From the IMG/VR virus record IMGVR_UViG_3300023184_000045, positions 1-64,000 of that record: a stretch of 64,000 nt of DNA. One strand, 5' to 3'. A program made the position numbers and the translations under genes. The stretch is from a virus. The notes below the pieces were generated by a model. That model ran no database searches. It was not told the DNA's origin and saw only the letters and a program-made list of their open reading frames with translations. How positions within the stretch are numbered: the first letter of the stretch is position 1; the number at the start of each line of letters is the position of its first letter. Shown here one piece after another: positions 1 to 64,000 of this stretch.

Positions 1-3000
1 CCTTATACTATTTACAGAGCTTAATGGTGCAATTGCCGGTGCTGCCACGTTGGCAGTTGGCAAACCCGTTGTTGTAATTAGAAAACTATTAACACTAGCA
101 TCCAGAGCCGGATACTGCGTAGTCAGTGCTGTTGAGTTAGTGTACTGCAATATGGTTGCACCATTGAAGTAGACACTGGCATATCCATCTGTTACAGGTG
201 TGGTCTGTGAGAATATGCTGGTGCTTACACTGCCATAATTCCTGTTAATAACAAATGAGTAAGGCCCATTGTCTTTGATCGTTAAATTTTGCAGTGCTAA
301 AAATGTTGTATTAGTTACGCTGGTTAAGTTGGTAGTCTGCGGAGTAAAATTAGCTGTGTAAACAGCAGTACCGTTGACCACACGCAAATTTGAAACGTAG
401 GCATTAATTGAATTAGTATTCTGTCCAGTGGCTGCGCCGTCCCTGATATTACCAATCCAGACAGTGCTGCTGGTTTGATTTAATGCACCTGTAAAAGTTC
501 CTGCAGTGGGATCTTGATAACCGTTGACCCAAAAATTGATGGTGCCACTCAGACGAGTAACAGCAACATGAGTCCATTGCCCAGTGGGAATTTTTATACT
601 ACCAGTGATTCTGCTGCCGTAATAAAAATCAAGACTGCTGGTAGGAGAAGTGTATACACCAAAGGCCCAGGTGCCCGCACCAACACCAGCTCTGGTGTCC
701 ACTATGCCGCCATAGTTAGAAGAATATGCATTAAGATAAATCCAGCACTCTACTGTAAAATCTCCCGTACCAAAACTAAACGGTGATCTAGTAGCAGCAG
801 CAGACACCGCAGTTGATGCTGGTGCCAGACTGGCGTAAGCAACATTACCAAAGTTGGTAACTGGAAAGTTATTTGTACTAGAATCAAGCAGTTTGTTTGT
901 ACTAGTAGAAACGGTCATCAGCACCGTGGTGTTAGCAGTTACAACCAATGGGGCAGCTGGATTAAATGCACTGGTATACAATGCCTGCCCTTTGGTTATA
1001 CGCACATTGGTGATATAACCAGTCCAGCGATAGGATGGTCCCAGACCTGACTGCCCAATGTATAATGCCGAAGATGCAGAGACGTTGGCAGGTGTTAGAT
1101 CACTGCTGCCAATGTTATCTGCCGTGGTTACGTCCACACCATTTACCCATATTTTTCCAGTGGTGCCAGATCTGGTCGCTGCTATATGGTTCCAAGAATT
1201 GCCCAGTGTTGCAGCAGCAGCATTGCCTGCGCCAGTGCAATACCAAAACGGTATATTAGTGCCGCCAAACAAGCTGCCATAACCTGATAATCGCCAATGA
1301 TTACTATAGTATTGCAGTTCCCAAAAACGATTTTCAGCGCCCGTCATATTACCTAAAATTGCATATTGACCGGCGTCGGTGGGCATGGTGCCTGGCCAGT
1401 ACACCCAGGCTTCTACGGTAAAATCACCAGAGAATGACCATGCCGATTGATAGGTAGCGGCAATGGTTAGGTATTGGCCGCTGGTGGCAAAATTTAAACT
1501 TCCATATGGTGTAGACGGAGCACTGCTATTAAAACCAACCGAACCCACTCTGGTTATGTTGCTGGTAAAATTATTAATACTAGAATCAGTTAAGTAGGTA
1601 CTAGAACTAGAAACAGATAGCAACAATTGGGTATTGGTAATATTGCCCAATGGCACAACAGGTGCAAAATTAGCTGTATAAACTGCGGTACCTTTAACTA
1701 TCCTGAAATTAGTAATGTAGCCATTCCATGATCTAACGGCGCCATTATAAGAACCCATATTACCAATACCAAAAATACTATTATTGGTATTGAATGATGC
1801 GTATGCTGTACTTGCTCCTCCTCCGTATCCTTGTCCATTTACCCATACAGTAGCAACTGTGCCTGTTCTTGTAACTGCCACATGATTCCATGTATTAGCA
1901 GCTATCACAGCGCCTGTTACTGTTATATTAGAAGTGCTAGTGGTTCCGGGCCCAGGGCCTATGCCTGCAAAAGTTATTGCGCCGCCTGCTTCCATCCACA
2001 GTACCCAGTCAATGGTGTTATTACCACTGGTAGTGGTAGCGGATGCTCCGCTTATATCCAAACGAGCCGCAGTTGAAGTTACATAAATCCAAGCTTCTAT
2101 AGTGAATGTGGCAGTACTAAGATCCAGTATTTGACCAGTTCCGCCAATTGGTAAGGTCAGATACTGACTAGTACCGCTGAAGCTCAAACTACCAGCAGCC
2201 GCTGGTGTTGGATAAGCAGCATTAAAGACAGCGCCGTTGTTTGTTACTGCATATTGATTAATACTGGAATCTACTGCTCTGTTAGTATTGTTGTTGACTA
2301 GTAATAATAGTTGAGTTGATGCAAAGTTAGCCAGTGGTACAGCCGTATTAAATGTTGAGGTATATAAAATAGCTTTGGATATACGCATGTTGGTCATATA
2401 TCCAGGAAAATAGAAATATGCGGTGCCGCCAACGTTAGATCGACCAATGGTTAAAGTATTTGAAGGAGCACCACTGCTGTATGCCAACGAGGCCTGTGCA
2501 GAAGTTACAACACTAGCACCATTTAAATATATACTTGCTGTTTTTGTACTTGATACAAATGTAACCGCAATGTGATACCATGTGTTTGTTGTAACTAGTC
2601 CACCTGCAGATCTCCAAGCAACATTACTGCCGACACCATTGTTTATGACAAAAAGTATCTCACCGGTGGTGGTATTACTAATTGAAATAAAAAATCCAAT
2701 ATTGCCAGGAGTAATAGACGTAGCATAAATCATTTTTTCACCAGACACCGAGGTTAAATAAACCCAGGCTTCAATGGTAAAATCTTGCAGGCCGTTGTGT
2801 AAGTAAGTCCAATTGGCAGCAGTGCCAACGGATAAGTATTGAGTTGATCCGTCAAATGACAAACTGCCTGGTGCAGAATACGCACTGGTATCCACTGTAA
2901 GATAATCGTAAGTGGCATACCCATTGAACCAATAACTGTACGTAGGTGAATATGGTATGATTGCACTTTCCATACCGCGGGTGCCTTGTTGTCCACCAGT

Positions 3001-3177
3001 GCCAACTATGACGTTGGCTGTTGACCCAGCTGGTATTTGCAAATTGCCAACGTAGATCAAGCCACCTGCGCCACCACCTGCCCCACGTAGATTATAATTA
3101 TTCCCACCACCGCCGCCGCCGGCTACTACCAGTGCTTCGACTTGAACGTTTGATGAAAATGAACTACTTATTGCCAT
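1..3177 (-). CDS. Multi-LamG (ConA-like lectin) plus glycine-rich virion/fibre protein, 3'-truncated by the window edge (>1059 aa); absent from the ORF track
   Basis: Hand translation from ATG at 3175-3177 gives MAISSSFSSNVQVEALVVAGGGGG... The same frame is open at the segments checked (1-180, 361-402, 721-885, 2750-3177). Four LamG cores (FTIEAWVY, FTIEAWIY, FTVEAWVY, FTVECWIY) and the NLRVVNGTAVYTANFTP motif. TAAATA lies 6 nt upstream. Confidence 0.9.
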   Translation of the reverse strand, partial: MAISSSFSSNVQVEALVVAGGGGGGNNYNLRGAGGGAGGLIYVGNLQIPAGSTANVIVGTGGQQGTRGMESAIIPYSPTYSYWFNGYATYDYLTVDTSAYSAPGSLSFDGSTQYLSVGTAANWTYLHNGLQDFTIEAWVYLTSVSGEKMIYATSITPGNIGFFISISNTTTGEILFVINNGVGSNVAWRSAGGLVTTNTWYHIAVTFVSSTKTASIYLNGASVVTSAQASLAYSSGAPSNTLTIGRSNVGGTAYFYFPGYMTNMRISKAILYTSTFNTAVPLANFASTQLLLLVNNNTNRAVDSSINQYAVTNNGAVFNAAYPTPAAAGSLSFSGTSQYLTLPIGGTGQILDLSTATFTIEAWIYVTSTAARLDISGASATTTSGNNTIDWVLWMEAGGAITFAGIGPGPGTTSTSNITVTGAVIAANTWNHVAVTRTGTVATVWVNGQGYGGGASTAYASFNTNNSIFGIGNMGSYNGAVRSWNGYITNFRIVKGTAVYTANFAPVVPLGNITNTQLLLSVSSSSTYLTDSSINNFTSNITRVGSVGFNSSAPSTPYGSLNFATSGQYLTIAATYQSAWSFSGDFTVEAWVYWPGTMPTDAGQYAILGNMTGAENRFWELQYYSNHWRLSGYGSLFGGTNIPFWYCTGAGNAAAATLGNSWNHIAATRSGTTGKIWVNGVDVTTADNIGSSDLTPANVSASSALYIGQSGLGPSYRWTGYITNVRITKGQALYTSAFNPAAPLVVTANTTVLMTVSTSTNKLLDSSTNNFPVTNFGNVAYASLAPASTAVSAAATRSPFSFGTGDFTVECWIYLNAYSSNYGGIVDTRAGVGAGTWAFGVYTSPTSSLDFYYGSRITGSIKIPTGQWTHVAVTRLSGTINFWVNGYQDPTAGTFTGALNQTSSTVWIGNIRDGAATGQNTNSINAYVSNLRVVNGTAVYTANFTPQTTNLTSVTNTTFLALQNLTIKDNGPYSFVINRNYGSVSTSIFSQTTPVTDGYASVYFNGATILQYTNSTALTTQYPALDASVNSFLITTTGLPTANVAAPAIAPLSSVNSIR

Positions 3178-3196: not shown

Positions 3197-3217
3197 CTGA
3201 ACTCTGGTATTTCATAT

Positions 3218-6200
3218 TTAGAAAGTAATGGTACCAGAAGTAATCCATTTGTATATTCTATAGCCACCCGATACCACTGGGTACCCGGCTGCTAGATTAG
3301 TTGTGCCGGCTGCTGCGTTATAGGTATCTGAATAACGAATAATAACAACACCGGATCCGCCGGTGCCGCCATGAGCCGGATTGTAGCCTGCGCCGCCGCC
3401 ACCACCGCCAGTGTTAGGTGTGCCATCGCCACCGTTAGTACCAGTAGCAGCACCTGTGCCGCCCTGTCCACCACCGCCTGTACCTCCTGCTCCGTTACCT
3501 ATCCAGCCACCACCACCACCACCTCCTGCATAATACATTGACGCACCAGTAATAGAACTTGATAGACCAACTCCGCCAACAGTACAATTAAATGCTCCGG
3601 CTGCATTACCGTTACCGCCTAACCCACCCGCGCCGCCGCCGCCGCCTGAATAGTCAGTATTGCCTGTACCGCCGCCTGCGCCGTCATATCCTTGACGAGG
3701 CGCACTTATATAAGGTGATCCGGGATATACTCCATATCCGCCATTATTGGCAACAGATCCATTTGGTGCGCCGCCGCCGCCCGAGCCACCGCTGTTTGCA
3801 AGACCGACATAAGTATTTTTTTGCCCGGCTCCCCCGCCATAAGCCACAATAGTAGTATTAAACGATGAATTGAGTCCATTTGTAGCTAGTGTATAGGTTG
3901 GTGTTCCGACACCATACGTGCCGCCAGCACCTACTACAACTGGAATCGCTGTGCCCAAATTTACACTGTAACCAGTTGCCGTTAAGAATCCACCTGCACC
4001 ACCCCCTCCACCGTACCAGGCTCCACCGCCACCGCCTGCTACTACCAAGTACTCAACTTGAATCACTATTGAATTAACAACAAATGTACCGTTGGAGGTA
4101 AATGTATGTATGGTATATCCACCAGAAGTTGTAACTGTTCCGCCAGTGCCTAATTGCAATAGACCGGCATAACGTATTATTGCAATACCAGGATTGCCAT
4201 TGTATGTTGATGCATTCGGAACGCCAGTACCATTGGCACCATATCCGTAATAACCTTGCAAGGTATTTGACCCATCATATCCAGTGGCATACACGGCACC
4301 AGCATCGCTATTCCCATACCCACCGCCGGCATATTTTGCACTAGATCCGCTAAATGACGATATCAATGGGGCGCCGCCGGCCACTAGCCCACCGGTACCT
4401 GTAGATCCTGCGCCGCCTGCGCCACCACCAGATCCACCGCCCCATGTACTGTTCCATGATGCGCCGCCTGCATAACCATACCCAACACCGCCAAATAACG
4501 GATAACTGGACTGAGTGCTTGCACCGCCTGCCGCGCTGTATTGACCACCTCCACCACCGCCCGACCCACCAGGGTGGCCAATAGTTGGTGGAGTATCGAA
4601 TCCAGTGTGAGAGCCACCGCCACCGCCGCCCTGCGCGGTAACTGTGCCAGTTATATCAATTGACAGCGAGGTAGGCTGTCCATCTGCGCCACCGGTAGTA
4701 GCAGTCTGGTCAGACGCACCACCTGTACCAATTGTAACAGTTACAACAGTGGCCAACTGTAATGCATATGCAGTACCAATTACCACGCCACCACCACCGC
4801 CACCACCGCCTACGTCGTAGCCGGCACCGCCGCCACCACCTACAATAAAGTAATCTACAGACAACGAACCGCCTAATGTCGTTAAATCAAAATAACCAGA
4901 TGAAGTAAATTTGTGCAACCAATAGTTAGTTCCACCATAGCTTACAGATTGCACTAGGGAGCCGCCATTTGCGCGTTGTGTGCCAGCATACCAAAAATAA
5001 GCTACACCGGCATTACCAGCAGTACCGTAACTGACACGGCTACCGCCCCCGCCATAGTTAACACTGGAATTAGACGTTAAACCGCCATCTGAGTAACTGG
5101 CAATGACATTGCCAAGTATGTTAACGGATATAGGACCATTGGTACCTGCGGCTGTTGGAACAACAGATGCATTGTAGGTAGCGTTGACACTGGTTACAGT
5201 AAGATTGTTTGTGCTAGAGTCTGTTAGGTAAGTTAGACTAGAATTAACTAACATTAACAGTGTAGTATTTGGCACTACAGATAACAATGTTGGGGTAAAT
5301 GCACTATTATATACAGCTCTACCATTAACAACTCTCATATTAGTCATGTAGCCTTTAAAATAAGTTGCGCCTGTTGTTTCGTTTACTGGATACCCAATTG
5401 CAAATGATCCAACAAAATTTACAGCACCAGACATTGTGCCAGCACCGCCTGCCGCACCATTTATATAAAATGTATATGCTGTTCCGCTCCTAACCAAGGC
5501 CACGTGGCACCATGCATTAAAAGTAACTGCCACAGTAGCAGTATAAGAACCACCAGACACTACAGTACCATTTCCAGATATAGACCAATCTAATCCCATG
5601 CGGCCATCAGTGTATAATACCCACATCCAACCTCGAGTTGGGCTTGCCCCGCCTTGATTATTCATAATTACACAAGGACTACTAGACCCCTGGTAATATA
5701 ACCAAGTTTCAAGTGTAAAATCAGCTGTTAAATTAAATGCTGCATTACTGGGTATAGTTAGTGTAGCACTAGTACCGTTAAAATAGATACTGCCGCCTGC
5801 TGTTGTAACTGACCCGCTTGCATTAGGAATCACTGTACTACTAAATGTGGCGCCACTGATAGTAGGAGTAAAATTGTTGGTACTGCTGTCGACTGCTCTA
5901 TTGGTGTTGTTACTAACTAACATCAACAATGAGGTGTTAGGAACAAGGCTTAATGGCACAGTTGGACTAAAACCGCTACTGTACATTGCCGATTTTACTA
6001 TTCTAACATTGGTTATGTATCCATTGAAGAACCAAGTTGGACTTGCTGAATCATTATTGGCACCAATAAATAACGGATCACTGCTACCTGTAATTGTCAC
6101 TGCTGTTGTAGTAGCAACTTGCTGCCCATTGAGATAAAGGTAAAAGTTGGCACTATTTCTAACAAAGGCTGCATGATACCAAGTATTTAAACTGGTGGTG

Positions 6201-8491
6201 CCACCACTCATGCTGCCGGACGTATTCCAACTTGCACTAATGCCGCCCGCTCCGTTATAACCAGCAGTCAATGTAAATGACCTTCCGCTGGATATATGCC
6301 ATAGGTCAATTAAACTGCCGCCTTGGCCAGATGGTGGATAAGCTGTTTGATAGAACCAACATTCGACAGTAAAGTCGCTTGACCCAAGCGCCCAGGCCGA
6401 ACTAGTTGGGTAACTCACGTAACTACTGCCATTGAATAGTAAACTACCTGCTGCGGCAGTGGCAGTAGCAGCAACCGATGGTACTATAGAAGAACTGTAC
6501 GTAATACCACCATTGTTAGTTACTGTAAAGTTATTTAAACTAGAATCTACTATTTTATTAGCGTCGCTGTTAACTAATAATAGTAAAGAAGTGTTAGTAA
6601 TAACAGTTAAAGGCAAGGGCAACGAAAAGGCAGCGGTATATACCGCTGTTCCTTTTACAATTCTAAAATTAGTCATGTAGCCCCCAAAGTAGGCCGTGGC
6701 GCCTGACCCGCTATACTTACCTATAACCGGACCATTTAGAACATAAGTATTTGAATCAGAGTAAGTGGAACCTTCTTGAATACCGTTTAGATACATTTTT
6801 GTAGAGCCGCTGGATTTAACTACAGCCACATGGTACCAAATACCAGTTGAAAGTGTAGTAGTCCCTGTTATTGTATTTGTGTTTGCTACGTTATACACTA
6901 AATTAGTTGATACCAGTATCATTGGACCTGCATTAAGAGTAATACCATTCCTCATATCAATGATAACACTACCTGAGGTAGAATTTAAATAAAACCAAGT
7001 TTCTATGGTCCAGTCGCCTGTGTCAAATTGAAATGCTGCATTACTAGGAATACTAAGATATTGGCTAGTACCATCAAATAACAAACTGCCAGCAGCAAAT
7101 GTGCTTACTGCATTTCCACCACTGCTGCCGCCAAGGCCGCCGGCAGATCCGGCTGCTCCGGCAGTTCCATAGCCGCCCCAAACACTACTAGGTTGTAAAC
7201 CAGTGCCGCCAATACCACTAACTGCACTAGATGTAAATCCACCACCCCCGCCCGACCCGCCAGCTGTACCCGAGGATCCAGTTAATGCGCTACCGCCTGC
7301 GCCACCGCCAATGGCAACCAAGTCATTAACACCAAACAAAGTAAAACTAACAACTGACGTGTTGCCGCCATTGGATCCAATACTGCCGCCGGTACCAACA
7401 GTGACTGCACAATTTGCTGCTGTATACGATAACAGTGAAGCGGATCCTAGTATAACCCCGCCGCCGCCTCCAGTTCCAGGTTGTGGTGCTGAACTGGACC
7501 CGCCGCTGCCTGCGCCACCGCCGCCAGCCACTACCAAATAATATAGATAAGCATCTGGTTTAAAAGTTAATGTATAAAATTTACTAATACTAATACCCAT
7601 TGACGAGGATGCTGTAACAGTAATAGTATATGCACCGGAATTTGACGCAAATTGTTGTTGGGTATATGAAAGGACACCAGTTGATGCATCTATTGCTAAT
7701 CCGCTGGGTCCAGTGTCAATAAAATAAGTTACAGTACCGCCATTGGAATCTTGGGCAGCAAACGTTTCAATTGTGGTGTAAGTACTATTAATAATAGTAT
7801 CGCTATCGCCGCCTGCTATCCAGTTCATATTAGCGCCACCTACACCGCCTGCAGCATACAATATGGTTGGCGTTGATGCCGATGAATCAAGGAAATAAGT
7901 TGCGCTGCCATTGTTACCAGCTATGTTACCCGGACTACCGCCTGCGCCAACAACAATAGTATAGTCACTTCCTGGCGTTACAAGATATAAATTATAGTAG
8001 TCAAGTAGGCCGCCATTGCCACCAGACCCGCCAGTGGCTTTTTGTTGCCCACCTCCACCTCCGCCAATGCCCGCCATGCTAACGGATGTTACTCCAGCTG
8101 GGCAAGTCCAGGTATAGGTGCCAGGTGAGGTATATGCTACGGTTGCATACGAGCTAACATTTGCAACAATATTACCATATGCAACGTTTAGTCCACTATC
8201 AAATAATGTAGTTGCACTCAAACTAGTAGTATTAGCCGACGATGTTGTAACAGTGGCAGATGCAACAGCAAATATTTGACCAATTTGATCAGGTGCGTAG
8301 CCGGTGGTTTTAATTGTATTAACCAGCGCTGGTGTAGTTTGCAATCCCACATTGCTAGTTGTGTTAACAACAGTTTCTCCGGGTGTTACGGTACCTACTG
8401 TAGTTTTAACCAGCGAAGAATCTTCTTCAACAGTAACTATCGTCGTTAGACGATTAACAACTAGATCAAGACTGGGTAGTATAGCAGACAC
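3218..8491 (-). CDS. 1757-aa virion protein: Thr/Val-rich N-terminus, 4 glycine-rich domains, an Ig-like module and 3 LamG domains
   Basis: GTG start preceded by GAGGA. Motifs YLVVAGGGG...GVVIIRY...YKWITSGTITF; GLAIDASTGVLS...YTITVTA (Ig-like); WTIETWFY, FTVECWFY, FTLETWLY. Confidence 0.9.
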   Translation of the reverse strand: MSAILPSLDLVVNRLTTIVTVEEDSSLVKTTVGTVTPGETVVNTTSNVGLQTTPALVNTIKTTGYAPDQIGQIFAVASATVTTSSANTTSLSATTLFDSGLNVAYGNIVANVSSYATVAYTSPGTYTWTCPAGVTSVSMAGIGGGGGGQQKATGGSGGNGGLLDYYNLYLVTPGSDYTIVVGAGGSPGNIAGNNGSATYFLDSSASTPTILYAAGGVGGANMNWIAGGDSDTIINSTYTTIETFAAQDSNGGTVTYFIDTGPSGLAIDASTGVLSYTQQQFASNSGAYTITVTASSSMGISISKFYTLTFKPDAYLYYLVVAGGGGAGSGGSSSAPQPGTGGGGGVILGSASLLSYTAANCAVTVGTGGSIGSNGGNTSVVSFTLFGVNDLVAIGGGAGGSALTGSSGTAGGSGGGGGFTSSAVSGIGGTGLQPSSVWGGYGTAGAAGSAGGLGGSSGGNAVSTFAAGSLLFDGTSQYLSIPSNAAFQFDTGDWTIETWFYLNSTSGSVIIDMRNGITLNAGPMILVSTNLVYNVANTNTITGTTTLSTGIWYHVAVVKSSGSTKMYLNGIQEGSTYSDSNTYVLNGPVIGKYSGSGATAYFGGYMTNFRIVKGTAVYTAAFSLPLPLTVITNTSLLLLVNSDANKIVDSSLNNFTVTNNGGITYSSSIVPSVAATATAAAGSLLFNGSSYVSYPTSSAWALGSSDFTVECWFYQTAYPPSGQGGSLIDLWHISSGRSFTLTAGYNGAGGISASWNTSGSMSGGTTSLNTWYHAAFVRNSANFYLYLNGQQVATTTAVTITGSSDPLFIGANNDSASPTWFFNGYITNVRIVKSAMYSSGFSPTVPLSLVPNTSLLMLVSNNTNRAVDSSTNNFTPTISGATFSSTVIPNASGSVTTAGGSIYFNGTSATLTIPSNAAFNLTADFTLETWLYYQGSSSPCVIMNNQGGASPTRGWMWVLYTDGRMGLDWSISGNGTVVSGGSYTATVAVTFNAWCHVALVRSGTAYTFYINGAAGGAGTMSGAVNFVGSFAIGYPVNETTGATYFKGYMTNMRVVNGRAVYNSAFTPTLLSVVPNTTLLMLVNSSLTYLTDSSTNNLTVTSVNATYNASVVPTAAGTNGPISVNILGNVIASYSDGGLTSNSSVNYGGGGSRVSYGTAGNAGVAYFWYAGTQRANGGSLVQSVSYGGTNYWLHKFTSSGYFDLTTLGGSLSVDYFIVGGGGGAGYDVGGGGGGGGVVIGTAYALQLATVVTVTIGTGGASDQTATTGGADGQPTSLSIDITGTVTAQGGGGGGSHTGFDTPPTIGHPGGSGGGGGGQYSAAGGASTQSSYPLFGGVGYGYAGGASWNSTWGGGSGGGAGGAGSTGTGGLVAGGAPLISSFSGSSAKYAGGGYGNSDAGAVYATGYDGSNTLQGYYGYGANGTGVPNASTYNGNPGIAIIRYAGLLQLGTGGTVTTSGGYTIHTFTSNGTFVVNSIVIQVEYLVVAGGGGGAWYGGGGGAGGFLTATGYSVNLGTAIPVVVGAGGTYGVGTPTYTLATNGLNSSFNTTIVAYGGGAGQKNTYVGLANSGGSGGGGAPNGSVANNGGYGVYPGSPYISAPRQGYDGAGGGTGNTDYSGGGGGAGGLGGNGNAAGAFNCTVGGVGLSSSITGASMYYAGGGGGGGWIGNGAGGTGGGGQGGTGAATGTNGGDGTPNTGGGGGGAGYNPAHGGTGGSGVVIIRYSDTYNAAAGTTNLAAGYPVVSGGYRIYKWITSGTITF

Positions 8492-27022: not shown

Positions 27023-28012
27023 CTACCAGACTATTGACCCAGATTGAGTAAATATGTAACTAATATTTACACCAGAAACGATTAAGGTAGGATTACCTGT
27101 AGTTGCGGTTGCATAACCATATGTAGCCGAATAACGCAGAACAACTGCGCCCGATCCACCAGTACCACCAATGCCACCGGCACCACTTACATTTCCTGCT
27201 CTACTTGTACCACCACCGCCACCACCGCCGGTATTTGCAGTTCCAGGATTTCCTGCGCTTAAGAATGTTGCTCCACCAGCGCCGCCGCCACCTATTCCTC
27301 CAGCACCAGGAATTCCGATAGAGGTATCCCCACCACCGCCACCACCGCCGGCATAGTAAGCAAAATAGCCGGCTATCGAGGAACCTAGGCCAGCGCCGCC
27401 AACCCCGCCGCTGACTGCTGGAGTTCCGGTGCCACCTACTGCATTTTTTCCACCTCCGCCTCCTCCAGCGCCGTTGCCTCCTCCAGTTGTAACGGCGCCA
27501 CCATCATTTCCTTGTCCTGCGGTTCCTGTACCAGCAGTTGATACAAAGTTAGCGCCACCACCAGACCCACCGTTCCTGACAACGTTTGTGCCAGAGTTTT
27601 GAATGCCGGAACCGCCACCACCACCAATGGCTGTTATTGTAGAGGTTCCGGCAATAATTGAATTTCCGCCAGCGCCGCCATTTCCTGTATTAAAATTAGG
27701 ACCAGCCGTGCCACCACCACCTACACTTATTATTATACTGGCGCCAGAAATAACAGAAAACCCTGTAGCAGTTAATAAGCCGCCGGCGCCGCCACCGCCA
27801 CCGCCTGTAGTATTGCCGTCTCCGCCACCACCGCCGCCGCCGGCTACTACTAAATATTCAACTGTTGGTGGAGCTCCTGATCCCAGAGACGGCCAGCGAT
27901 TTGCTTGTTTATTTTGCAACTGCTGAGATAAAGTCCAAATTCCACTGGTACTGGAAGAGGTAGGATTATAAATTGATCCTGAGATTATCCCTCCAGGATA
28001 TCGCTTGCTCAT
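27023..28012 (-). CDS. 329-aa glycine-rich-domain protein (putative fibre tip/adhesin) with MSKRYPGG N-terminus
   Basis: VEYLVVAGGGG...GTANTGGGGG...GAVVLRY...YIFTQSGSIVW; starts 1 nt after the upstream stop. Confidence 0.9.
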   Translation of the reverse strand: MSKRYPGGIISGSIYNPTSSSTSGIWTLSQQLQNKQANRWPSLGSGAPPTVEYLVVAGGGGGGGDGNTTGGGGGGAGGLLTATGFSVISGASIIISVGGGGTAGPNFNTGNGGAGGNSIIAGTSTITAIGGGGGSGIQNSGTNVVRNGGSGGGANFVSTAGTGTAGQGNDGGAVTTGGGNGAGGGGGGKNAVGGTGTPAVSGGVGGAGLGSSIAGYFAYYAGGGGGGGDTSIGIPGAGGIGGGGAGGATFLSAGNPGTANTGGGGGGGTSRAGNVSGAGGIGGTGGSGAVVLRYSATYGYATATTGNPTLIVSGVNISYIFTQSGSIVW

Positions 28013-46000: not shown

Positions 46001-47676
46001 TTTTCATTGACTATCTGTGTATCGGGTCTGACAAAATATGTTCTTTGAGTCTTAGAAGTATCGTATACCACTACCGTATCTGCTAGTGCAACAACCGGGC
46101 CGGCTAACGATTTTGTTCTAAGTTCCATTATTATTGTTTCGGGACCTTCGTCTAAATGGTCTGCTACTGCCGTTTTAGAAAATGTAGCAGAATTATTTTG
46201 TATTACAACACTTCCATGCCCTGTGCCGGTTGTTAATGCCCAGCTAATGGCAGCATATCCGCTATCACCATCTGCCGACAAAAAATCTGAATATGTTCCG
46301 CCGTTGTCAGCATAAGTTTGTGAAAATTCCAATGGAACTTCAGGAATCAGATCTCTACCGTCTGACCCACTGTATGCCCCATTATCGCCAGCGGTGCTAT
46401 ATAAAGTTCCGCTATCTCCGCCTAACCACCCGCCACCACCGCCACCACTTCCTGGACCATCGGTTGGTGTAGCCACTCCGTTGTTACCACTGGTTGTTTC
46501 GCTTGAAACATAAAGCTGTTGAGGTTTGCCGCTGCCATTAACACTAGATCCTGCACCGCCGCCACCGCCGCCACCAGCAGCTACAATTTTAAGTGAGTTA
46601 TTAACCAACAGCAGTGATGCGCCACCGCCGCCGCCGCCGGATCCAGAACTCCCCCAAGGGCCACTTTTACCCCCAGTGCCCCCATTGTATCCAATGGTTG
46701 TTACAAATAAATTAAATGCAGCAATATTGCCAGACAAGGTTGACACCGAACCAACATAACTTCCCGGTTTATATACTGTGCTAGTAGGAAGTATAGAACT
46801 ATTGTAAACAACTTGTCCGTGTACTATTACCCAATATTGTTGTGCTGTAGTAGCATCTTGAGTTACTTCATCATTCAGAGTGTACCATCCATTGCCAATT
46901 GTTATTGCAGCAGGATCATTGGTTAGATTGGCAACTAAACTAGAATAATATGTTGCATCTGTTCCCTGGCCGCCTGCGCCGCCATTGGCGCTGGCATTAA
47001 AATACCCGCCTCCTCCACCACCACCTATGTAAAATCTAAGTGTGTCCCCAGGAGTCACCGGTAACGTACCAGTAACTCTATGTCCAGGATAACCTGAATA
47101 ACCAGGATAGCGATCGTTGCCCCCTGCGCCGCCACCTGCACCAGCAATGTCAATTTCAACACTGTCAACATCTGCAGGTACAACCCAGGCATACATCCCA
47201 GGAGTATCGTATGTTGCCGTTGATTGAATTCCAAAATCAGCTGCCGATGTAGTACCTATATTGTTCCAATATAAAACTGTATCATTTTTAACATTAGTTG
47301 TAGTAATTGTATACGTCAAAGTTTCAGATTCTTTTATATACAATTTGTCTGGTGCAATAGTATAAGTTGGCGGATCTAATACATATACAATTTTAGACAC
47401 TGTTGGTGTTATACCAACTAATGTTACAGTCAATGGCTCGTTGTCGTCTGGCAAATAATCGTTTTTAAGATTTAAAACTAATTGCAAGAATCCCGGTTCA
47501 ACAGGTCCAACTACAAACTCGCCTGATAAGCTAGTAGGCGGCTTTCCGTTAATTTGATCAAAATCATCTAATGTTATCCCAGCACCAGAAATTACGTAAG
47601 GTATTCTGGTGCCGTCGGGCTTATTGGTTTTTAATGTAAATATAACATTTTTTCCATTTTCAAAAATTTGGTTCAT
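43093..47676 (-). CDS. 1527-aa multidomain virion protein: Calx-beta/Ig-like repeats, glycine-rich domain, adhesin-like beta-sandwich, Pro-rich linkers, C-terminal LCCL domain
   Basis: Three NE..T.T..I.T.NV....LYW...EGPET repeats; C-terminus VWGSQPYTADSDMSVAVVHAG...Y.ASTANDVTT matches the LCCL pattern VWG..YT.DS....AA.HAG. Confidence 0.88.
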   Translation of the reverse strand: MNQIFENGKNVIFTLKTNKPDGTRIPYVISGAGITLDDFDQINGKPPTSLSGEFVVGPVEPGFLQLVLNLKNDYLPDDNEPLTVTLVGITPTVSKIVYVLDPPTYTIAPDKLYIKESETLTYTITTTNVKNDTVLYWNNIGTTSAADFGIQSTATYDTPGMYAWVVPADVDSVEIDIAGAGGGAGGNDRYPGYSGYPGHRVTGTLPVTPGDTLRFYIGGGGGGGYFNASANGGAGGQGTDATYYSSLVANLTNDPAAITIGNGWYTLNDEVTQDATTAQQYWVIVHGQVVYNSSILPTSTVYKPGSYVGSVSTLSGNIAAFNLFVTTIGYNGGTGGKSGPWGSSGSGGGGGGASLLLVNNSLKIVAAGGGGGGGAGSSVNGSGKPQQLYVSSETTSGNNGVATPTDGPGSGGGGGGWLGGDSGTLYSTAGDNGAYSGSDGRDLIPEVPLEFSQTYADNGGTYSDFLSADGDSGYAAISWALTTGTGHGSVVIQNNSATFSKTAVADHLDEGPETIIMELRTKSLAGPVVALADTVVVYDTSKTQRTYFVRPDTQIVNENGTVTFNVYTTNVENNTVLYWSNFGNVASSYFADSASSGSVTITNNAGAITRKIAANVPESDQRLILVLRTESESGIIVATATPVTITNLIPAEQYYSIYTGGTIDNSSNLLTWWYKNKTSLVRSTSTTKLWEQDDDDGHDMADVYPGDNYRVRTYSRFSKNNPVSHATTFKFSPPADTTSISAAYWTIITWVTSHNAFDLPIWLDAPVFDNQIYAATYSSPGHVVAINQVPGTLAVGPPDVYAKWEWANWDTTKLNNLSMVAVSIAVPGQWRVNGNVIYAPKSNTGTVTNAQKYKYDVPAGNMSIFLGEGAANDIFADETKISVLPSIRGGYGQNFKDGGYYIDLNNAGCDTTVTYHSGDIVQVQETGEIISIPVNLFSQNHGLILNLFEQTNSFSAISTLDENRSVNYVIKTINVPDDSIVYWTNEGTTNSADFDDQANSGSIYIKDNTGYLKRRLVNDFTTEGPETITINLRTGSTNGPIVASSTAVRVNDTSGSPPAPPPPGRGPWSAYYTDGEQNSHVSGLNITVDTNGYLVGGGGFNEVLNFKVVANDTQTGGGTATSYELFVDDPGTTMIVNGVTYGPTNLTITTVNGEGIITGIGGVGARITIWAHWTSPAMSKKVTLSWSGGFIAKVLFTFYNGNFSQGSLLDNGDNTLSTPGWKVFNSQIKLDGLSTIEGYPTPTDSTQHPQGSGGFGVGDDQVPSGFTFSATLDTDLPSSITAPAKSIHLFSTGTTVGYGIIHGPYLVTKTAVDLVTDDVIYFWWKAQGGNDAYDIFAYLLNVDTGATIELLNQTGDSGGATTAWAQITYTVGSGQTGRYKFVFVSGSFDFSGGTALGASLYVTDIKITKYEPPAPPPPPAPPPPPPPQPPAPPPPPPGTEETICGPYPNVTVTGSLTGNLVWGSQPYTADSDMSVAVVHAGLAAPGQQVTIEMYNEGYYSNYAASTANDVTTLRYLDKWCGFYIRLA

Positions 47677-57800: not shown

Positions 57801-60532
57801 TGTGTTTCAATTCCCACCCAACGAAGTCTAAAATAGTTAAAATCATTCAAGCTGCCCGACGCATAGTACAAGCCGGGCGCAAGTATTGTTCTATTAAAAG
57901 GTACTTGAGTACTTTCAACACAATTTCCATTATTAATAATTGTTTGCCTATAACTACTAGTATCTACAAAATTATTTGTTAACAATAAACTTGTTTGTGA
58001 TACTAATGGTATAGCTGCACTTGGATATCCATCAACATTTGATTGCTGGGTGATAGCCAATCTTTCTGTCGCAGGAGTAAAATTTGCGGTATAAACTGCC
58101 ACACCATTAACAATGCGAATATTAAATAGATATCCATTTAAATATCCACTCCCTGAAACATTTGCCCCTATAACAATTCTAGTAGATACGTAATTATTAT
58201 TATCTGTGTACGTTGATCCTTCGCGGTCACCATTTAAAAACATGTTTGTGTCATTGCTATTTTTGGTAACAGCCACGTGGTACCAAATACCAGTTGAAAG
58301 TATGGTAGTCCCTGTTATTCTATCAATTCCGTTTACATAATATCGAAGACGGCTAGAAGTTATATATATTGTCGGTACAACTTCTGTAGGGTACGTAGCT
58401 CGATGATCTACAATTGTCTGAGTTCCAGAAACGCTATTAAATTTAACCCAAAATTCTATAGTAAAGTTATTATTTCCGTATGTAAATTGTGGGGCTGGTG
58501 CAGACACTTGAGTATATAAGTACTGGGCGGTTCCATTGAATTCCATGCTAACATCTTTACCTCCAATTGGCAACGGTCCAATATTTGCAGGATCAGAGTT
58601 GTCTATTACTGTGCCCATATACATATTAGTTAATTCTTCTATGTAAAAACAGTCAACATTTAAGTTGCCAAATTCAACCGGGCCATTGGCTCTGACAAAA
58701 TTATCAAACGTAATATACCCATCAGTTGACACATTTATGTCAGAGTATATATTTCCGTACATAACCCAATCAAATCCCAGTGGCAGGTGAGTTACTACTC
58801 CAGTATCCACTGTACCAAAATTTACAGTTGATGCTACTGTAATGTTTGTTAAGGTGCTAAATTGATTTAGCCTATTAGGTGCTACAGTATTTTTTAAAAA
58901 ATAGTCAGCGGACTTTGTTGACGATACTACAGTAAAATCGCAATCAAATGCTGTGTCACCTAAAATAACAGATCTTCTGAAGATACCGTTGGTGTACCCC
59001 CTAAAACTAATTCCAAAATAATCGTTACTGTTTAGACCAAATACATTATTTGTACCCGACAGGCCATTAACCCAATAAGTTAAATCACGGCTGGTAACAG
59101 GGGTTATATTTTCTTCGCCTAGCATTTTTATCTGCACAGGGGTAGTACCAATATTTGTTCTAGGACCCGGTTTACTGGATAATTGCACAGGTATTACTTT
59201 TCTAATTCCAGTTAGATCTAACGTCACAAACTCTTGTAAATAATGAACTGCCAAGTAGCTGCTGTTTACTACAGAAATTACAGTAACTTTATTATTAAAT
59301 TCTAATACCTCAATTCGTTTAGTACTACCAGCTGTTATATTATTATTTGGACTAGTAATTCGATATACTTGATTATTGTCGTGTCCAGTAACCCATAAAT
59401 TTTTTCCAAACTCTCTGACATACGCGGGTGCCATGTCTGGCGTTGCAAAATATGATATGGCTAGTGTACCTGCCTCAATTAATATCAACCGTTGATTGTT
59501 AGGGTCGGGTATTGCCACTAAACTATCATTATTAACATTTCCTGCTATGCCTAAAGCCTCAACAGTCATTAATAAAGTAAAATCACCCAATTCAGATATA
59601 TGATATACTTCGCCTAATTTAGTTACTCCAATAGCATCTGCACCAAGGCATGCAATACTAATAAATTTTGCAAACTGTTTTGAAAATTTTCCCACTACGT
59701 TAAACTGATTATCAGTGACAAACACTGTATCAAGCCCTGCTATCCATATACGTGTATTACTTGAATTCACCGACATTGTTTTTATTGGTGGATTTATTTT
59801 TGATTGATAATAACTGCGACGAGCATCAAGATAACTTTGCCCGCTGGGAGTGTCAGAATCAAACCATAATGCTTCTAATGAATTAACAGGAAGAACTGTT
59901 GGAGTATATGTGCCGCTATAGTAATATCGATGGTTAAATATTATGCGATACATTTTTCTGTTTCCGCAGAGTATCAACGCCTCAACTGTTTCTTTTCCGG
60001 TAAGTGGGTCAGTAACACGTAGTTTACTATATTCAATTGGACCAGCAGGAAGGCCAACTCTAGTGAATAATACTTGTTTGTCAGAATAAAAATAAACTGC
60101 ATCATTTATATGATCAAGTACAATATGAGTACGCTCCATATCAATTTGATTATAATTAAAACCAAATTCGCGCTGTTTATCTTCGCCATAAAATGTAATT
60201 AAAAATTTTCCTGGTACATAGTTATACCAAGATTTTCCTGCGTCGCCAGGTTTAACTGTAGGAGTATAACTATTTTTATTAACTACAGCAAAAGAATGAG
60301 TTTTAAAATCAAGTTGATACTCGTAAAATGTGTAGTCTAAGTATCCCGGAGGAGAGGTAACAGTAGCTTCGACATAATCAGTGATATTTAATTTAATTGG
60401 TCTAGTATTTGTTACCGTACCATTTATTGATACTGTGACATTTGACCATATATTAAACGTTTGATATTTGTCTGAATAAAAATTTACTGTAATAGGGCTA
60501 TTGGGGGCGCATGCCGAAACGCTGCTGAACAT
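51845..60532 (-). CDS. ~2895-aa giant virion protein: propeller-like N-terminus, split nidogen-like domain, 3 LamG domains, basic 16-aa repeat, acidic ~14-aa repeat
   Basis: The ORF track starts at TTG 60544, but GGAGG (60538-60542) is better spaced to the ATG at 60530-60532. LamG cores FTIEFWVK, WTIEFWCY, YTIECWIY. Confidence 0.88.
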   Translation of the reverse strand: MFSSVSACAPNSPITVNFYSDKYQTFNIWSNVTVSINGTVTNTRPIKLNITDYVEATVTSPPGYLDYTFYEYQLDFKTHSFAVVNKNSYTPTVKPGDAGKSWYNYVPGKFLITFYGEDKQREFGFNYNQIDMERTHIVLDHINDAVYFYSDKQVLFTRVGLPAGPIEYSKLRVTDPLTGKETVEALILCGNRKMYRIIFNHRYYYSGTYTPTVLPVNSLEALWFDSDTPSGQSYLDARRSYYQSKINPPIKTMSVNSSNTRIWIAGLDTVFVTDNQFNVVGKFSKQFAKFISIACLGADAIGVTKLGEVYHISELGDFTLLMTVEALGIAGNVNNDSLVAIPDPNNQRLILIEAGTLAISYFATPDMAPAYVREFGKNLWVTGHDNNQVYRITSPNNNITAGSTKRIEVLEFNNKVTVISVVNSSYLAVHYLQEFVTLDLTGIRKVIPVQLSSKPGPRTNIGTTPVQIKMLGEENITPVTSRDLTYWVNGLSGTNNVFGLNSNDYFGISFRGYTNGIFRRSVILGDTAFDCDFTVVSSTKSADYFLKNTVAPNRLNQFSTLTNITVASTVNFGTVDTGVVTHLPLGFDWVMYGNIYSDINVSTDGYITFDNFVRANGPVEFGNLNVDCFYIEELTNMYMGTVIDNSDPANIGPLPIGGKDVSMEFNGTAQYLYTQVSAPAPQFTYGNNNFTIEFWVKFNSVSGTQTIVDHRATYPTEVVPTIYITSSRLRYYVNGIDRITGTTILSTGIWYHVAVTKNSNDTNMFLNGDREGSTYTDNNNYVSTRIVIGANVSGSGYLNGYLFNIRIVNGVAVYTANFTPATERLAITQQSNVDGYPSAAIPLVSQTSLLLTNNFVDTSSYRQTIINNGNCVESTQVPFNRTILAPGLYYASGSLNDFNYFRLRWVGIETQPYPAGNLVSLLSSITSSTRLIVSNTSSTNVGDYVSGTGITVSTRVSAYELGILYHVVARKIDAGNNKIILATPDFDITTLQTASTVSNVLATVNHTLTATTSSRYYRTGIPTADRLLYVNPAATTLYVDGAIDNSITADYVIGLPNLPTKTLSGFINKGRTGPTISSSTYSCIPTSFGPFANTGSMLFNGANRFDASLGGTVAAGVFCWTIEFWCYVTNDTTIQCILSVDPGMVTLQKWALFRAPGTGQILIDCPIGVTSQLFTTSIIPINTWVHIAIVGGRNNINDSLTTETSKMYVDGIGTSEFTLINRSTYATQATYTFGLDIVRNALYFNGYISNFRLVNNVKVYTADFTPSTIPLTAVQEPNINGTPSARIIQEGALTGTEMLATTVDNIGIIIDRSDNAAEIINYGGVGLTTAGPIGIIGRYTFNGTNQYLSFPAWIVNNLGTSTESNYTIECWIYRTSDPGAGNSISTAIPIVSAMGPSGNMIWSITSTGYLFSNRSVSTYTFLSATIPNKNNWAHIAFVNVDDTMNVYLDGVNVGSVTLAGTWNNSMTAASIGYNNSAPAKYFQGYISNLRLVAGVAVYTADFAVPTQSFKKAQLSDLNGIPSAAVAATATMLLLSHPATTTDITNVTSINSTTNTITITGVPAETNTVYVSQTDYDKVYENQYVPLYDVYILQKKIVSTDYALVFDTNLTVSVNDQFNTTTTAINFASAITAQYISTNDTVRFSIDELTLNSVANLITGPLNIQQQVVIIDTPQTLSSGTSLLFKTKIPLIERTYEVGFYSGLSYQYAEFFYNNDNHTQSRIIGISSDDSVRASISTHASTQTSVLFTSDIADGKWSLLGAGGFTENSSGYVPYGQLEIFKSTPLFSNESKVELFVAQDFPIGANVLIASSFGQLTVNGADYTGTRYLQKNDVISLTIPYNLSLSVVAPMLSIAELQIVLPMVSDAAINPIFETLFLYDDQDLGIYMSATAIVPIDDLYYIPEYYRKVSNAGNDLQFYLTNLDVFRQRLVPGQYYYFNAGDQIDVDNIITSFAIYDSRDIIITSSSQALRISVRTRKNPVFDYLNFGTLIDPYARQQTYTTVDYAVTVTNEVIVTSQITLAASTTVIGNLYIDTLYANILIDGVDKGSYVTNVTNGNKISISRLIANYSEPPVTIYQVKFDSAISSNVYIPIGIWNMQNKVISAPQSMLPQTNLVNTLLTPEIPELKNINNLSTLMPVVDQDQLLALKKLTTNLIDNNTSIKNIPRMPAISNWTTGFAPKKNIVLSTVNLFGIKLNTKLVLSATSVFKNPLVSNLFSVASLAKSITYTAALLSANHAYLKYKAYKAVLSSNYAYLKSKAYTAAPSVTYAYLKSNSYTAALGSTYAYLKSNSYTAALGSTYAYLKSKAYTAALSATYAYLKSNSYTAALGSNYSLFKSNAYTAVPSANYSLFKSNAYTAALGATYAYLKSNAYTAALGATYAYLKSNAYTAAPGSTYSLLKSIPYASIPYALYSYIESDTYKSALTKNYSYLKSDKYMSILDKNYSYVKPFKFVAAIGMKYSYLKIAPLKNVLNFPYSYASPAAFPVEYTFVTERNIKMFETSITVPMTLNTHQTGDVISESNYTINVSDKIESNPDLHQSESLTQMDIVLIPQITEMFNAPLSTGAATFSELFASSTVEIDVEHLITKALPPVLDIETIIDTLAPNIELEFETVLAGNMPSMNLDNEHLVFQDLPPVLEFETVLAGNMPSMNLDNEHLVFQDLPPVLEFEHGVTNRPLAELEIESITTFKSFPLEMEIEHLVLPELPPELDAEHLVLPELPPELDAENLLTINKFPLIVEDEHLVDNTNFQLVVEDEHLVSDQIVPELDAERLINYRVTFELDQEVFWGTDQIDIGGVFNTYISIFANQSQGIGLINSSATLPMMEYTKEYTYIGDKAYLTYEDAMDKASKYYSADAIKIATTDYWNYRIYFNEHHFCVPKKGRIFPVTWYIQGG
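52352..52439 (-). repeat. Exact 42-bp (14-aa) tandem duplication
   Basis: EHLVLPELPPELDA twice; copies start at 52352 and 52394. Confidence 0.95.
52523..52707 (-). repeat. Exact 87-bp (29-aa) tandem duplication in the acidic repeat region
   Basis: LEFETVLAGNMPSMNLDNEHLVFQDLPPV twice; copies start at 52523 and 52610. Confidence 0.95.
53105..53830 (-). repeat. Coding tandem repeat, 48-bp/16-aa unit (YAYLKSNAYTAALGAT); ~10 conserved plus ~5 degenerate copies
   Basis: Plus-strand unit ttttaagtaggcataggttgcacccagtgctgccgtatatgcattgga and variants. Confidence 0.95.
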
Positions 60533-60547
60533 CATGCCCTCCAATAT

Positions 60548-60556: not shown

Positions 60557-60587
60557 TTTCCACTATGTAATGTTTTGTAAATTTAGA

Positions 60588-62024: not shown

Positions 62025-62043
62025 TATTATTAAACTCCTGATG

Positions 62044-63999: not shown

Positions 64000-64000
64000 T

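What the first reader, a model, noticed from the sequence alone, without database searches (positions are those of the whole stretch)
1..64000. Recursive 'matryoshka' construction of virion adhesins across at least six genes
Seen in sequence: domains repeatedly sit inside other domains rather than in tandem. This happens in the edge ORF, 1757-aa, 3047-aa, 3035-aa, 1527-aa and ~2895-aa proteins, with LamG in LamG, LamG in Gly-rich, Gly-rich in LamG, Gly-rich in Calx-like and LamG in nidogen-like. Many guests share a signature (GSLxFxG...TSLLLxV....DSS). Established: single domain insertions are known, but multi-level nesting repeated across a gene cluster is unusual. Inference: this lineage diversifies its receptor-binding arsenal by inserting whole lectin cassettes into permissive loops, giving branched rather than linear proteins. 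I do not know this as a described system.
Basis: partly seen in the sequence, partly recalled or inferred. Interest (0 to 1): 0.8.

Follow-up and report, generated by a model that had tools for sequence, protein, structure and literature searches.

The report
Nested lectin cassettes in phage proteins
A large T4-like cyanophage relative builds its giant virion proteins by putting whole lectin-type (LamG) and glycine-rich domains inside loops of other domains, sometimes several levels deep, and related phages differ by the presence or absence of these inserts.

Summary
The core observation holds, but not every listed case does. The window is the first 64 kb of a 123-kb viral contig related to T4-like cyanophages.

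Shown by profile coordinates:
- A Gly-rich domain splits a Calx-like unit in the 1527-aa protein at positions 51/50. The joined halves score like intact copies.
- LamG cassettes split Gly_rich_2 domains in the 3035-aa and 1757-aa proteins and probably the 3047-aa and edge proteins.

All 24 LamG cores are contiguous, so LamG-in-LamG rests on displaced hairpins. The support is:
- a stack-like core/hairpin order in 125 homologues;
- covariation of the hairpin with the first strands of the preceding core;
- one AlphaFold2 model, low-confidence at that hairpin, in which a core takes a hairpin across a complete guest.

Orthologues differ by whole cassettes at these junctions.

Not supported: Gly-rich inside LamG. 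Unverified: the nidogen-like host. Pfam finds no Calx-beta in the unit.

Recursive nesting is already known in cyanobacterial RNA polymerase SI3, so this is a new variant of a known kind. Receptor binding is inferred only.

The parts
47230..47343 (-). 1527-aa protein, N half of the split Calx-like unit (residues 112-149)
   Evidence: Matches unit profile positions 14-51. The profile was built from 219 uninterrupted copies.
46237..47229 (-). 1527-aa protein, Gly-rich guest (residues 150-480) inside the Calx-like unit
   Evidence: Pfam Gly_rich_2 matches residues 158-247 at 28.9 bits against a 24.3 cut-off. Orthologue P0127 carries an extra LamG+hairpin inside this guest.
46060..46236 (-). 1527-aa protein, C half of the split Calx-like unit (residues 481-539)
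   Evidence: Matches unit profile positions 50-108. The joined halves score 107 bits as one hit.
31126..31347 (-). 3035-aa protein, N part of its third Gly-rich domain (residues 2048-2121)
   Evidence: Matches my Gly-rich profile positions 19-99.
30475..31125 (-). 3035-aa protein, LamG core plus hairpin guest (residues 2122-2338)
   Evidence: LamG profile positions 5-167, followed by a hairpin at about 2310.
29824..30453 (-). 3035-aa protein, C part of the same Gly-rich domain (residues 2346-2555)
   Evidence: The C piece matches my profile positions 82-295. Joined to the N part it gives one hit over 20-295 at 115 bits.
7106..7579 (-). 1757-aa protein, N part of a Gly-rich domain (residues 305-462)
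   Evidence: Matches my profile positions 12-169.
5171..7105 (-). 1757-aa protein, three LamG+hairpin guests (residues 463-1107)
4889..5065 (-). 1757-aa protein, C part of that Gly-rich domain (about residues 1143-1201)
   Evidence: Matches my profile positions 233-294.
2962..3162 (-). Edge ORF, N part of a Gly-rich domain (residues 6-72). The rest lies beyond the contig end.
   Evidence: Pfam Gly_rich_2 scores 31.3 bits. My profile matches positions 19-93, the same break point as in the 3035-aa protein.
2881..2946 (-). Edge ORF, orphan LamG first-strand segment (residues 78-99)
   Evidence: Matches LamG profile positions 4-23, weakly on its own (E 0.26).
835..2874 (-). Edge ORF, three complete LamG+hairpin units (residues 102-781)
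343..798 (-). Edge ORF, fourth LamG core lacking its first strands (residues 794-945)
   Evidence: The profile match starts at position 19. Joined to the orphan segment it scores 112 against 104 bits and covers positions 4-167.
24873..25997 (-). 3047-aa protein, Gly-rich N part (residues 318-521) followed by guest core L2 (522-692)
   Evidence: Pfam Gly_rich_2 positions 5-210 of 226 at 23.6 bits, just under the cut-off.
24504..24800 (-). 3047-aa protein, hairpin F2 (residues 717-749) and Gly-rich C part (about 750-815)
   Evidence: Seen in the sequence. The Gly-rich C part (about 750-815) is at low confidence in model B. My Gly-rich profile does not score it.
22368..23729 (-). 3047-aa protein, block L4 L5 F4 F5 (residues 1074-1527)
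   Evidence: Two cores are followed by two hairpins. P0009 has a 683-aa balanced unit between the L5 tail and F4.
19065..22343 (-). 3047-aa protein, block L6 L7 L8 F6 L9 L10 F7 F8 F9 F10 (residues 1536-2628)
   Evidence: Five cores and five hairpins in a stack order, conserved in P0007, P0008 and P0009.
20037..20510 (-). Core L9 (residues 2147-2304), host of the one predicted discontinuous LamG
   Evidence: In the model, solved pentraxin and LamG-like folds align over model range 666..1048-1065 with 167-180 aligned residues.
19407..20000 (-). Guest L10 plus F7 (residues 2317-2514)
   Evidence: Model range 830..1038 aligns to 4dqa (Z 18.3, rmsd 2.7, 190 aligned).
19290..19379 (-). Hairpin F8 (residues 2524-2553), placed on L9 in the model
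   Evidence: pLDDT is under 50 here.
57890..58561 (-). 2899-aa protein, LamG+hairpin (residues 662-885) between two conserved flanks of unproven identity
   Evidence: The flanks are kept in orthologue P0212 (72% identity). The NIDO reading is only a weak lead.
27023..28012 (-). 329-aa gene, an uninterrupted Gly-rich domain and the guest-free counterpart of 554-556-aa genes in relatives
   Evidence: Matches my profile positions 20-294 in one piece. The N-terminal stretch is 63% identical over 56 aligned residues.

Best explanation
The giant proteins of this T4-like cyanophage relative are built from a portable cassette. The cassette is a LamG (concanavalin-like) beta-sandwich core followed by a roughly 35-residue hairpin that completes the sandwich next to the core's first strands.

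Inference: because the hairpin ends next to where the core begins, the two ends of a cassette lie close together. That would let it be spliced into a surface loop of another domain.

Shown: cassettes and arrays of them sit inside Gly_rich_2 domains at two recurrent loops, and a Gly-rich domain sits inside a Calx-like unit.

Probable: a cassette can also be inserted between the core and the hairpin of another cassette. This gives core-core-hairpin-hairpin orders that read like nested brackets. In the 3047-aa protein they are up to four deep by stack matching, or three under an alternative reading.

Shown: related phages differ by whole balanced cassettes at these junctions. Two cores, L2 (guest in Gly-rich) and L8 (innermost in block 2), are replaced by unrelated LamG cores while their flanks stay conserved.

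Inferred only: the result is a branched display of many lectin-like modules on the virion, varied by cassette gain, loss and swapping.
For: Split hosts:
- Host halves are contiguous in profile coordinates and score like intact domains when joined.
- Uninterrupted hosts are common: 219 Calx-like units and 87 Gly-rich domains in the fetched sets.

The hairpin belongs to the fold:
- Solved LamG and pentraxin folds align over core plus hairpin. Model A 426..671: PAPP-A, Z 19.1, rmsd 3.0, 214 aligned. Model A 830..1038: 4dqa, Z 18.3, rmsd 2.7, 190 aligned. Model B 738..1008: PAPP-A, Z 21.4, rmsd 2.7, 197 aligned.
- Hairpin columns covary with columns 6-15 of the preceding core, about 170 residues upstream. 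Top corrected mutual information is 0.17-0.19, against 0.09 for the following core and 0.02 for shuffled pairs.

Nesting:
- Core L9 plus hairpin F8 align as one fold across the L10-F7 guest (8pvq, Z 17.3, rmsd 2.9, 167 aligned; 6lvb, Z 17.1, rmsd 2.8, 180 aligned).
- In 125 homologues only 5 of 1161 hairpins are unmatched by stack matching, against 56 +/- 9 when run order is shuffled (0 of 2000 shuffles reach it).
- Distal stack-matched pairs fit the coupling model better than the same hairpin with other cores of the same protein (-0.29 against -2.78).

Cassette polymorphism between orthologues.

The architecture is identical in independent assemblies from three sources.
Against: - Both AlphaFold2 models are mediocre (mean pLDDT 62.5 and 56.0; pTM 0.37 and 0.41). 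F8 itself is under 50, and F9 and F10 were not placed.
- In model A, hairpin F5 was put on the following core L6 (range 7..232), so the predictor may simply take the nearest hairpin.
- Last-in-first-out pairing beats first-in-first-out pairing only weakly (30 of 50 blocks, p 0.012, with orthologues not removed).
- Inserting core+hairpin units at any unit boundary always yields bracket-like strings, so the grammar alone does not prove 3D nesting.
- Under the rule that the hairpin follows its core, most family members keep an unpaired leading hairpin and an unpaired last core.
- No binding, virion or expression data were obtained.
Confidence: 0.7

Rival explanations
1. Linear beads. The hairpins are independent linker modules, the LamG cores are complete without them, and core-core-hairpin-hairpin orders only record where cassettes were pasted into linkers. 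No LamG domain is discontinuous. Only the Gly-rich and Calx-like insertions are true nesting.
For: All 24 cores are contiguous full-length profile matches. Pfam's Laminin_G_3 model does not include the hairpin. Inserting core+hairpin units anywhere yields bracket strings by construction. Hairpins F9 and F10 were left unplaced by AlphaFold2.
Against: Solved LamG and pentraxin folds align over more residues than the core holds, so the alignment runs through the hairpin. The hairpin covaries with the far N-terminal strands of the preceding core. The model places F8 on L9 across a guest. Distal stack-matched pairs fit better than other pairs in the same protein.
Confidence: 0.15
2. The displaced hairpins do complete LamG cores, but not in a nested order within one chain. 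They pair in a crossing (first-in-first-out) order, or between chains of an oligomeric fibre, as in strand swapping.
For: The test of last-in-first-out against first-in-first-out pairing is only weakly decided. Family members systematically keep a leading hairpin and a final core without partners: 204 of 278 proteins end in a bare core. The leading hairpin fits the adjacent first core worst. Neighbouring genes carry collagen repeats, which usually form trimers (the trimer point is from general knowledge).
Against: The one distal pair placed by the model is the nested one, L9-F8 around L10-F7. Short linkers between successive hairpins and between successive cores suit nesting. The models were monomers, so inter-chain pairing was not tested.
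Confidence: 0.12
3. Artefact. The orders come from misassembly of repeats, frameshifts or wrong gene calls.
For: The source is a metagenomic contig. One neighbouring gene is split by a frameshift.
Against: The cores are only about 25-38% identical to each other, too divergent to collapse in assembly. The reading frames are open over 9 kb. Orthologues from independent samples and sources have the same element order.
Confidence: 0.02

Closest known systems
SI3 insertion of cyanobacterial RNA polymerase beta' (nested sandwich-barrel hybrid motifs)
   Same: Like domains are inserted into like domains recursively, in the pattern A1-B1-C-B2-A2. Six levels are reported for Prochlorococcus rpoC2 (PMC13114784).
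   Different: The fold, protein class and setting differ. Here the unit is a LamG core plus hairpin in phage virion-type proteins. The nesting spans several genes and mixes three host families. Orthologues differ by whole cassettes. Depth by stack matching reaches 8 in a relative, but that rests on sequence order only.
Ordinary single domain insertion (A1-B-A2)
   Same: The host halves are contiguous in profile coordinates and the guest is a complete domain. Insertion is reported in about 20% of multidomain proteins (PMC13114784).
   Different: Here the same cassette is reused many times, at recurrent loops and in stacks.
LamG-bearing virion structural proteins of cultured T4-like cyanophages (S-PM2, S-RSM4, Syn1, S-H9-1)
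   Same: The neighbouring virion structural gene is 43-47% identical. A contiguous core+hairpin unit matches their 'virion structural protein' and 'baseplate wedge subunit' genes at about 35%.
   Different: The matches in the cultured phages cover only part of the query, and in some records a single core+hairpin unit. Their domain order was not examined. No nested order has been reported for them in the papers I could search.
Circular permutation in concanavalin-type lectins (from general knowledge, not tested here)
   Same: The two chain ends of this fold lie side by side. That would explain why the hairpin can sit before the core in bacterial LamG proteins (recalled from memory, not checked here) and after it in these cassettes.
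   Different: Here the permuted arrangement is encoded in the gene and used as an insertable module.

Membership tests
Laminin_G_3 (PF13385) | Profile match above the curated cut-off | tested here: met
   Scores of 65-567 bits against a 27.6 cut-off in the edge, 1757-aa, 3047-aa, 2899-aa and 1368-aa proteins. In the 3035-aa protein only my own profile finds the core.
Laminin_G_3 (PF13385) | LamG/pentraxin-type beta-sandwich fold | tested here: met
   Predicted models align to PAPP-A LG, PTX3, 4dqa and neurexin LNS domains at Z 16-21, rmsd 2.5-3.3, with 155-214 residues aligned. These are models, not structures.
Gly_rich_2 (PF21722) | Profile match above the curated cut-off of 24.3 bits | tested here: met
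   1757-aa 136 bits, 3035-aa 80.2, edge 31.3, 1527-aa 28.9. The 3047-aa protein scores 23.6, just below.
Calx-beta (PF03160) | Profile match of the repeated unit of the 1527-aa protein | tested here: not met
   An intact unit gave no Pfam family even at E up to 10. Some homologues carry precomputed PF03160 hits, but their position was not checked. I therefore call it 'Calx-like' as a description only.
NIDO (PF06119) | Profile match of the flanks around the LamG guest in the 2899-aa protein | tested here: inconclusive
   Neither flank has a Pfam hit. The nearest language-model clusters carry NIDO in 32-38% of members, at a score of 0.85, below the level the tool treats as reliable.
Domain insertion (discontinuous host, A1-B-A2) | The two host pieces are contiguous in the host profile and together make a full domain | tested here: met
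   Calx-like 14-51 and 50-108. Gly-rich of the 3035-aa protein 19-99 and 82-295. The joined pieces give single full hits.
Domain insertion (discontinuous host, A1-B-A2) | Homologues with the uninterrupted host exist | tested here: met
   219 intact Calx-like units and 87 intact Gly-rich domains. The window's 329-aa gene compares with 554-556-aa counterparts carrying the guest.
Domain insertion (discontinuous host, A1-B-A2) | The host pieces pack together in three dimensions | tested here: inconclusive
   For LamG, one distal core-hairpin pair is placed together in a model, at low confidence. For Gly-rich, the model was too poor. For Calx-like, no model was made.
Recursive nesting of like domains (as in RNA polymerase SI3) | A guest that is itself a host of the same family | tested here: inconclusive
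   Sequence order, covariation and one modelled pair support it. Pairing order is only weakly resolved.

The most novel reading that the evidence does not exclude
LamG arrays of this phage lineage follow a true stack grammar. Any cassette can host others between its core and its hairpin, giving branched single-chain trees of lectin domains. By sequence order these are 4 deep here and 8 deep in relative P0015, which would exceed the six levels reported for RNA polymerase SI3.

In addition, the systematically unpaired leading hairpin and final core may complement each other. That would either close the whole protein into a ring or join chains head to tail.
Probability: 0.25. Interest if true: 0.85.

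Novelty: new variant of a known kind. Interest (0 to 1): 0.62.

Why it matters
If the nesting is real in three dimensions, these proteins are branched trees of lectin-like modules rather than strings of beads. That changes how such fibres should be modelled, how domain boundaries are called, and how host-range variation is read in marine cyanophage genomes.

The family is large. A search with a 461-residue stretch of the 2899-aa protein that contains one LamG cassette found 22,716 representative proteins at E <= 0.001. Of 278 array proteins examined, 80 show a matched depth of 2 or more.

The cassette, a permuted LamG with its two ends probably adjacent, would also be a natural example of a domain suited to insertion, which is of interest for protein design. 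The cassette differences between close relatives point to the positions where these phages vary most.

Tried and rejected
- A near-identity DNA search against cultured phages found nothing.
- A pattern-based search for related viral loci with the 1527-aa protein found nothing.
- Sequence searches of solved structures gave only a weak LamG hit (4qvs, E 0.0014), and for Gly-rich only antibody-linker noise.
- The first attempt to widen the hairpin profile drifted into the LamG tail and produced false hairpins. I discarded it and rebuilt it with fixed columns.
- Model A did not place hairpins F9 and F10. Model B did not fold the first 480 residues, which hold L1, F1 and the Gly-rich N part. The three-level case (LamG around Gly-rich around LamG) therefore could not be tested.
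- The whole-library search with the nidogen-like region was swamped by LamG matches and returned only one orthologue with the same layout.
- The junction of the 683-aa indel shows no microhomology or shared target motif.
- No orthologue of the edge ORF was recovered, so its missing Gly-rich C part remains an inference by analogy with P0318 and P0319.
- I did not build the tree of the 24 LamG domains. I used unit-by-unit identities to orthologues instead.
Full report
CONTEXT

The window is bases 1-64000 of a 123,497-base IMG/VR viral contig that CheckV rates as about 35% complete. All large genes are on the minus strand.
- Small neighbours match phage virion families. A 'virion structural protein' (phrog_5838) and two tail-sheath-like genes are.
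- The 744-aa structural protein is 43-47% identical to virion structural proteins of T4-like cyanomyoviruses such as S-RIM32, S-RSM4 and S-PM2.
- Close relatives occur on metagenomic contigs of up to 348 kb.
- The source is therefore a large T4-like cyanophage relative.

INVENTORY

Pfam finds Laminin_G_3, Gly_rich_2 and collagen repeats in the giant proteins. A LamG profile built from the window's own copies finds 24 full-length, contiguous cores.

INSERTIONS SHOWN BY PROFILE COORDINATES

1. 1527-aa protein.
 - A profile of its Calx-like unit, built from 219 uninterrupted copies in homologues, matches residues 112-149 at positions 14-51. It matches residues 481-539 at positions 50-108.
 - A 331-residue Gly-rich domain lies between the two halves.
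 - Joined in a script for scoring only, the halves give one hit of 107 bits. Intact paralogues score 106-118 bits.
 - Pfam itself does not call the unit Calx-beta.
2. 3035-aa protein. The third Gly-rich domain is cut between profile positions of about 93 and 95 by one core plus hairpin. The joined pieces give one hit over positions 20-295 at 115 bits.
3. 1757-aa protein. Three core+hairpin units lie between Gly-rich positions 12-169 and 233-294.
4. Edge ORF. Its Gly-rich N part stops at the same position (93) as in the 3035-aa protein. LamG units follow, and the contig then ends.
5. 3047-aa protein. A Gly-rich match just under Pfam's cut-off is followed by core L2, hairpin F2 and a short C part that ends in the usual strand.

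In the fetched proteins, 87 Gly-rich domains are uninterrupted. The clear splits cluster near profile positions 75-98 and 221-238.

ALLELES WITH AND WITHOUT GUESTS

- The window's 329-aa gene is a whole Gly-rich domain. At the same place in three related contigs, genes of 554-556 aa share the N-terminal stretch (63% identity over 56 aligned residues) and carry a core+hairpin inside the Gly-rich domain.
- P0127, the orthologue of the 1527-aa protein at 53% identity, has an additional core+hairpin inside the Gly-rich guest. That makes three levels.
- P0317, an orthologue of the 1757-aa protein, has guests in the Gly-rich part of the protein, where the window's protein has two uninterrupted domains.
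- P0009, an orthologue of the 3047-aa protein, has 683 extra residues. They are placed exactly between the tail of core L5 and its hairpin, with flanks 80-90% identical. The insert reads core (core hairpin)(core hairpin) hairpin, which is a balanced unit.
- Cores L2 (guest in Gly-rich) and L8 (innermost in block 2) are only 32-38% identical to their positional counterparts, while the other cores are 72-88% identical. The region around L8, including its hairpin, is conserved.
- The DNA junction shows no microhomology.

LamG IN LamG

In the 3047-aa protein the order of cores (L) and hairpins (F) is:

F0 L1 F1 [Gly L2 F2 Gly] L3 F3 L4 L5 F4 F5 L6 L7 L8 F6 L9 L10 F7 F8 F9 F10 L11 F11 L12

. Cores without a hairpin are later balanced by runs of hairpins.

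The family shows the same rule.
- In 125 homologues, core-core and hairpin-hairpin steps correlate (Spearman 0.71).
- Only 5 of 1161 hairpins stay unmatched by stack matching, against 56 +/- 9 when the order of runs is shuffled (0 of 2000 shuffles reach it).
- One relative, P0015, has eight cores followed by eight hairpins.
- This grammar would also arise from pasting core+hairpin units at any boundary. It therefore proves cassette insertion but not 3D nesting.

IS THE HAIRPIN PART OF THE FOLD, AND OF WHICH CORE?

Two AlphaFold2 models were made, with mean pLDDT 62.5 and 56.0. Only the ranges from structural alignment to solved chains could be read.
- Solved LamG and pentraxin folds align over core plus the following hairpin.
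 - L8+F6: PAPP-A, Z 19.1, rmsd 3.0, 214 aligned.
 - L10+F7: 4dqa, Z 18.3, rmsd 2.7, 190 aligned.
 - L3+F3: PAPP-A, Z 21.4, rmsd 2.7, 197 aligned.
 - These aligned lengths exceed the length of the core alone.
- For L9, many chains align over model range 666..1048-1065 with 167-180 residues. That range is the L9 core plus hairpin F8, reached across the complete L10-F7 guest. This is the one direct model-based sign of a discontinuous LamG, and F8 has pLDDT under 50.
- F5 was placed on the following core L6. The predictor may therefore favour whichever hairpin is nearest.

An independent test used about 1,400 neighbouring pairs.
- Hairpin columns covary most strongly with columns 6-15 (the first strands) of the preceding core, about 170 residues upstream.
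- The top corrected mutual information is 0.17-0.19, against 0.09 for the following core and 0.02 for shuffled partners.
- A score built from these couplings rates distal stack-matched pairs above the same hairpin with other cores of the same protein (-0.29 against -2.78; Mann-Whitney 1.6e-12, not corrected for related sequences).
- It separates nested from crossing pairings only weakly (30 of 50 blocks, p 0.012).

CASES THAT DO NOT HOLD OR STAY OPEN

- Gly-rich in LamG. Adding the proposed strand at residues 298-308 to core L3 gains no score, and the model is too poor there.
- Edge ORF. The orphan first-strand segment plus the truncated fourth core gain 8.5 bits and full profile coverage. This is moderate support only.
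- Nidogen-like host. There is no Pfam hit, only a weak lead, and no guest-free homologue.

AN UNEXPLAINED REGULARITY

204 of 278 array proteins end in a core with no hairpin, and 114 begin with a hairpin. That leading hairpin fits the adjacent first core worst, and fits the last core slightly better than the others.

COMPARISON WITH WHAT IS KNOWN

- Domain insertion is common. Six-level recursive nesting of like domains is described for the SI3 region of cyanobacterial RNA polymerase (PMC13114784).
- I found no paper on nested LamG or Gly_rich_2 domains in phages.

VERDICT

- It is probable for LamG in LamG.
- It is unsupported for one listed case and unverified for another.
- It is a new variant of a known kind.
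- A receptor-binding role is a reasonable inference that I did not test.

Noticed in passing
window 14316-17386 (-): The 1020-aa virion structural gene of the relatives (L009:21561-24620) is split here into two overlapping ORFs of 294 and 744 aa. They are 83% and 81% identical to residues 1-285 and 283-1020. This implies a frameshift near 16502-16550, which could be a sequencing error or real.
   Followed up: partly
family-wide; in the window, 3047-aa protein residues 45-80 (26709-26816) and 2871-3040 (17829-18338): Most LamG-array proteins start with a hairpin and end with a bare core. The leading hairpin fits the adjacent core worst and the last core slightly better than the others. This may reflect ring closure or head-to-tail strand complementation.
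   Followed up: partly
P0015 residues 1507-3319 (relative, not in the window): Eight LamG cores in a row are followed by eight hairpins in a row, the deepest bracket pattern seen among 278 proteins.
   Followed up: partly
window 20699-21224 (core L8) and 24873-25385 (core L2): These two cores are only 32-38% identical to their positional counterparts in P0009, while neighbouring cores are 72-88% identical. The hairpin after L8 is conserved. This looks like core swapping at the tips of the tree.
   Followed up: partly
window 7577-7828 (-), 1757-aa protein residues 222-305: A He_PIG-type Ig domain (E 1e-7) sits between a first Gly-rich N part (residues 121-222, profile positions 1-102) and the start of a second Gly-rich domain. 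No C part for the first one was found.
   Followed up: partly
window about 51848-54600 (-), C-terminal third of the 2899-aa protein: Two runs of short tandem peptide repeats are visible in the translation. One is a unit of about 16 residues of the type YAYLKSNSYTAALGST, repeated many times. The other is made of EHLV...PPELDA-type units.
   Followed up: no
window 43096-43347 (-): The C-terminal end of the 1527-aa protein gives an LCCL hit just under Pfam's cut-off (22.2 against 22.6 bits). It follows a long proline-rich stretch.
   Followed up: no
window 60588-63924 (-): Two adjacent genes (478 and 626 aa) both match the C-terminal part of the same tail-sheath family (phrog_12249).
   Followed up: no
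window 27926-28012 and 26850-26948 (-): The 329-aa Gly-rich protein and the 3047-aa protein begin with a similar short N-terminal motif (M.K..PGG.I...). The 554-556-aa proteins of the relatives share it, so it may be a common attachment segment.
   Followed up: no
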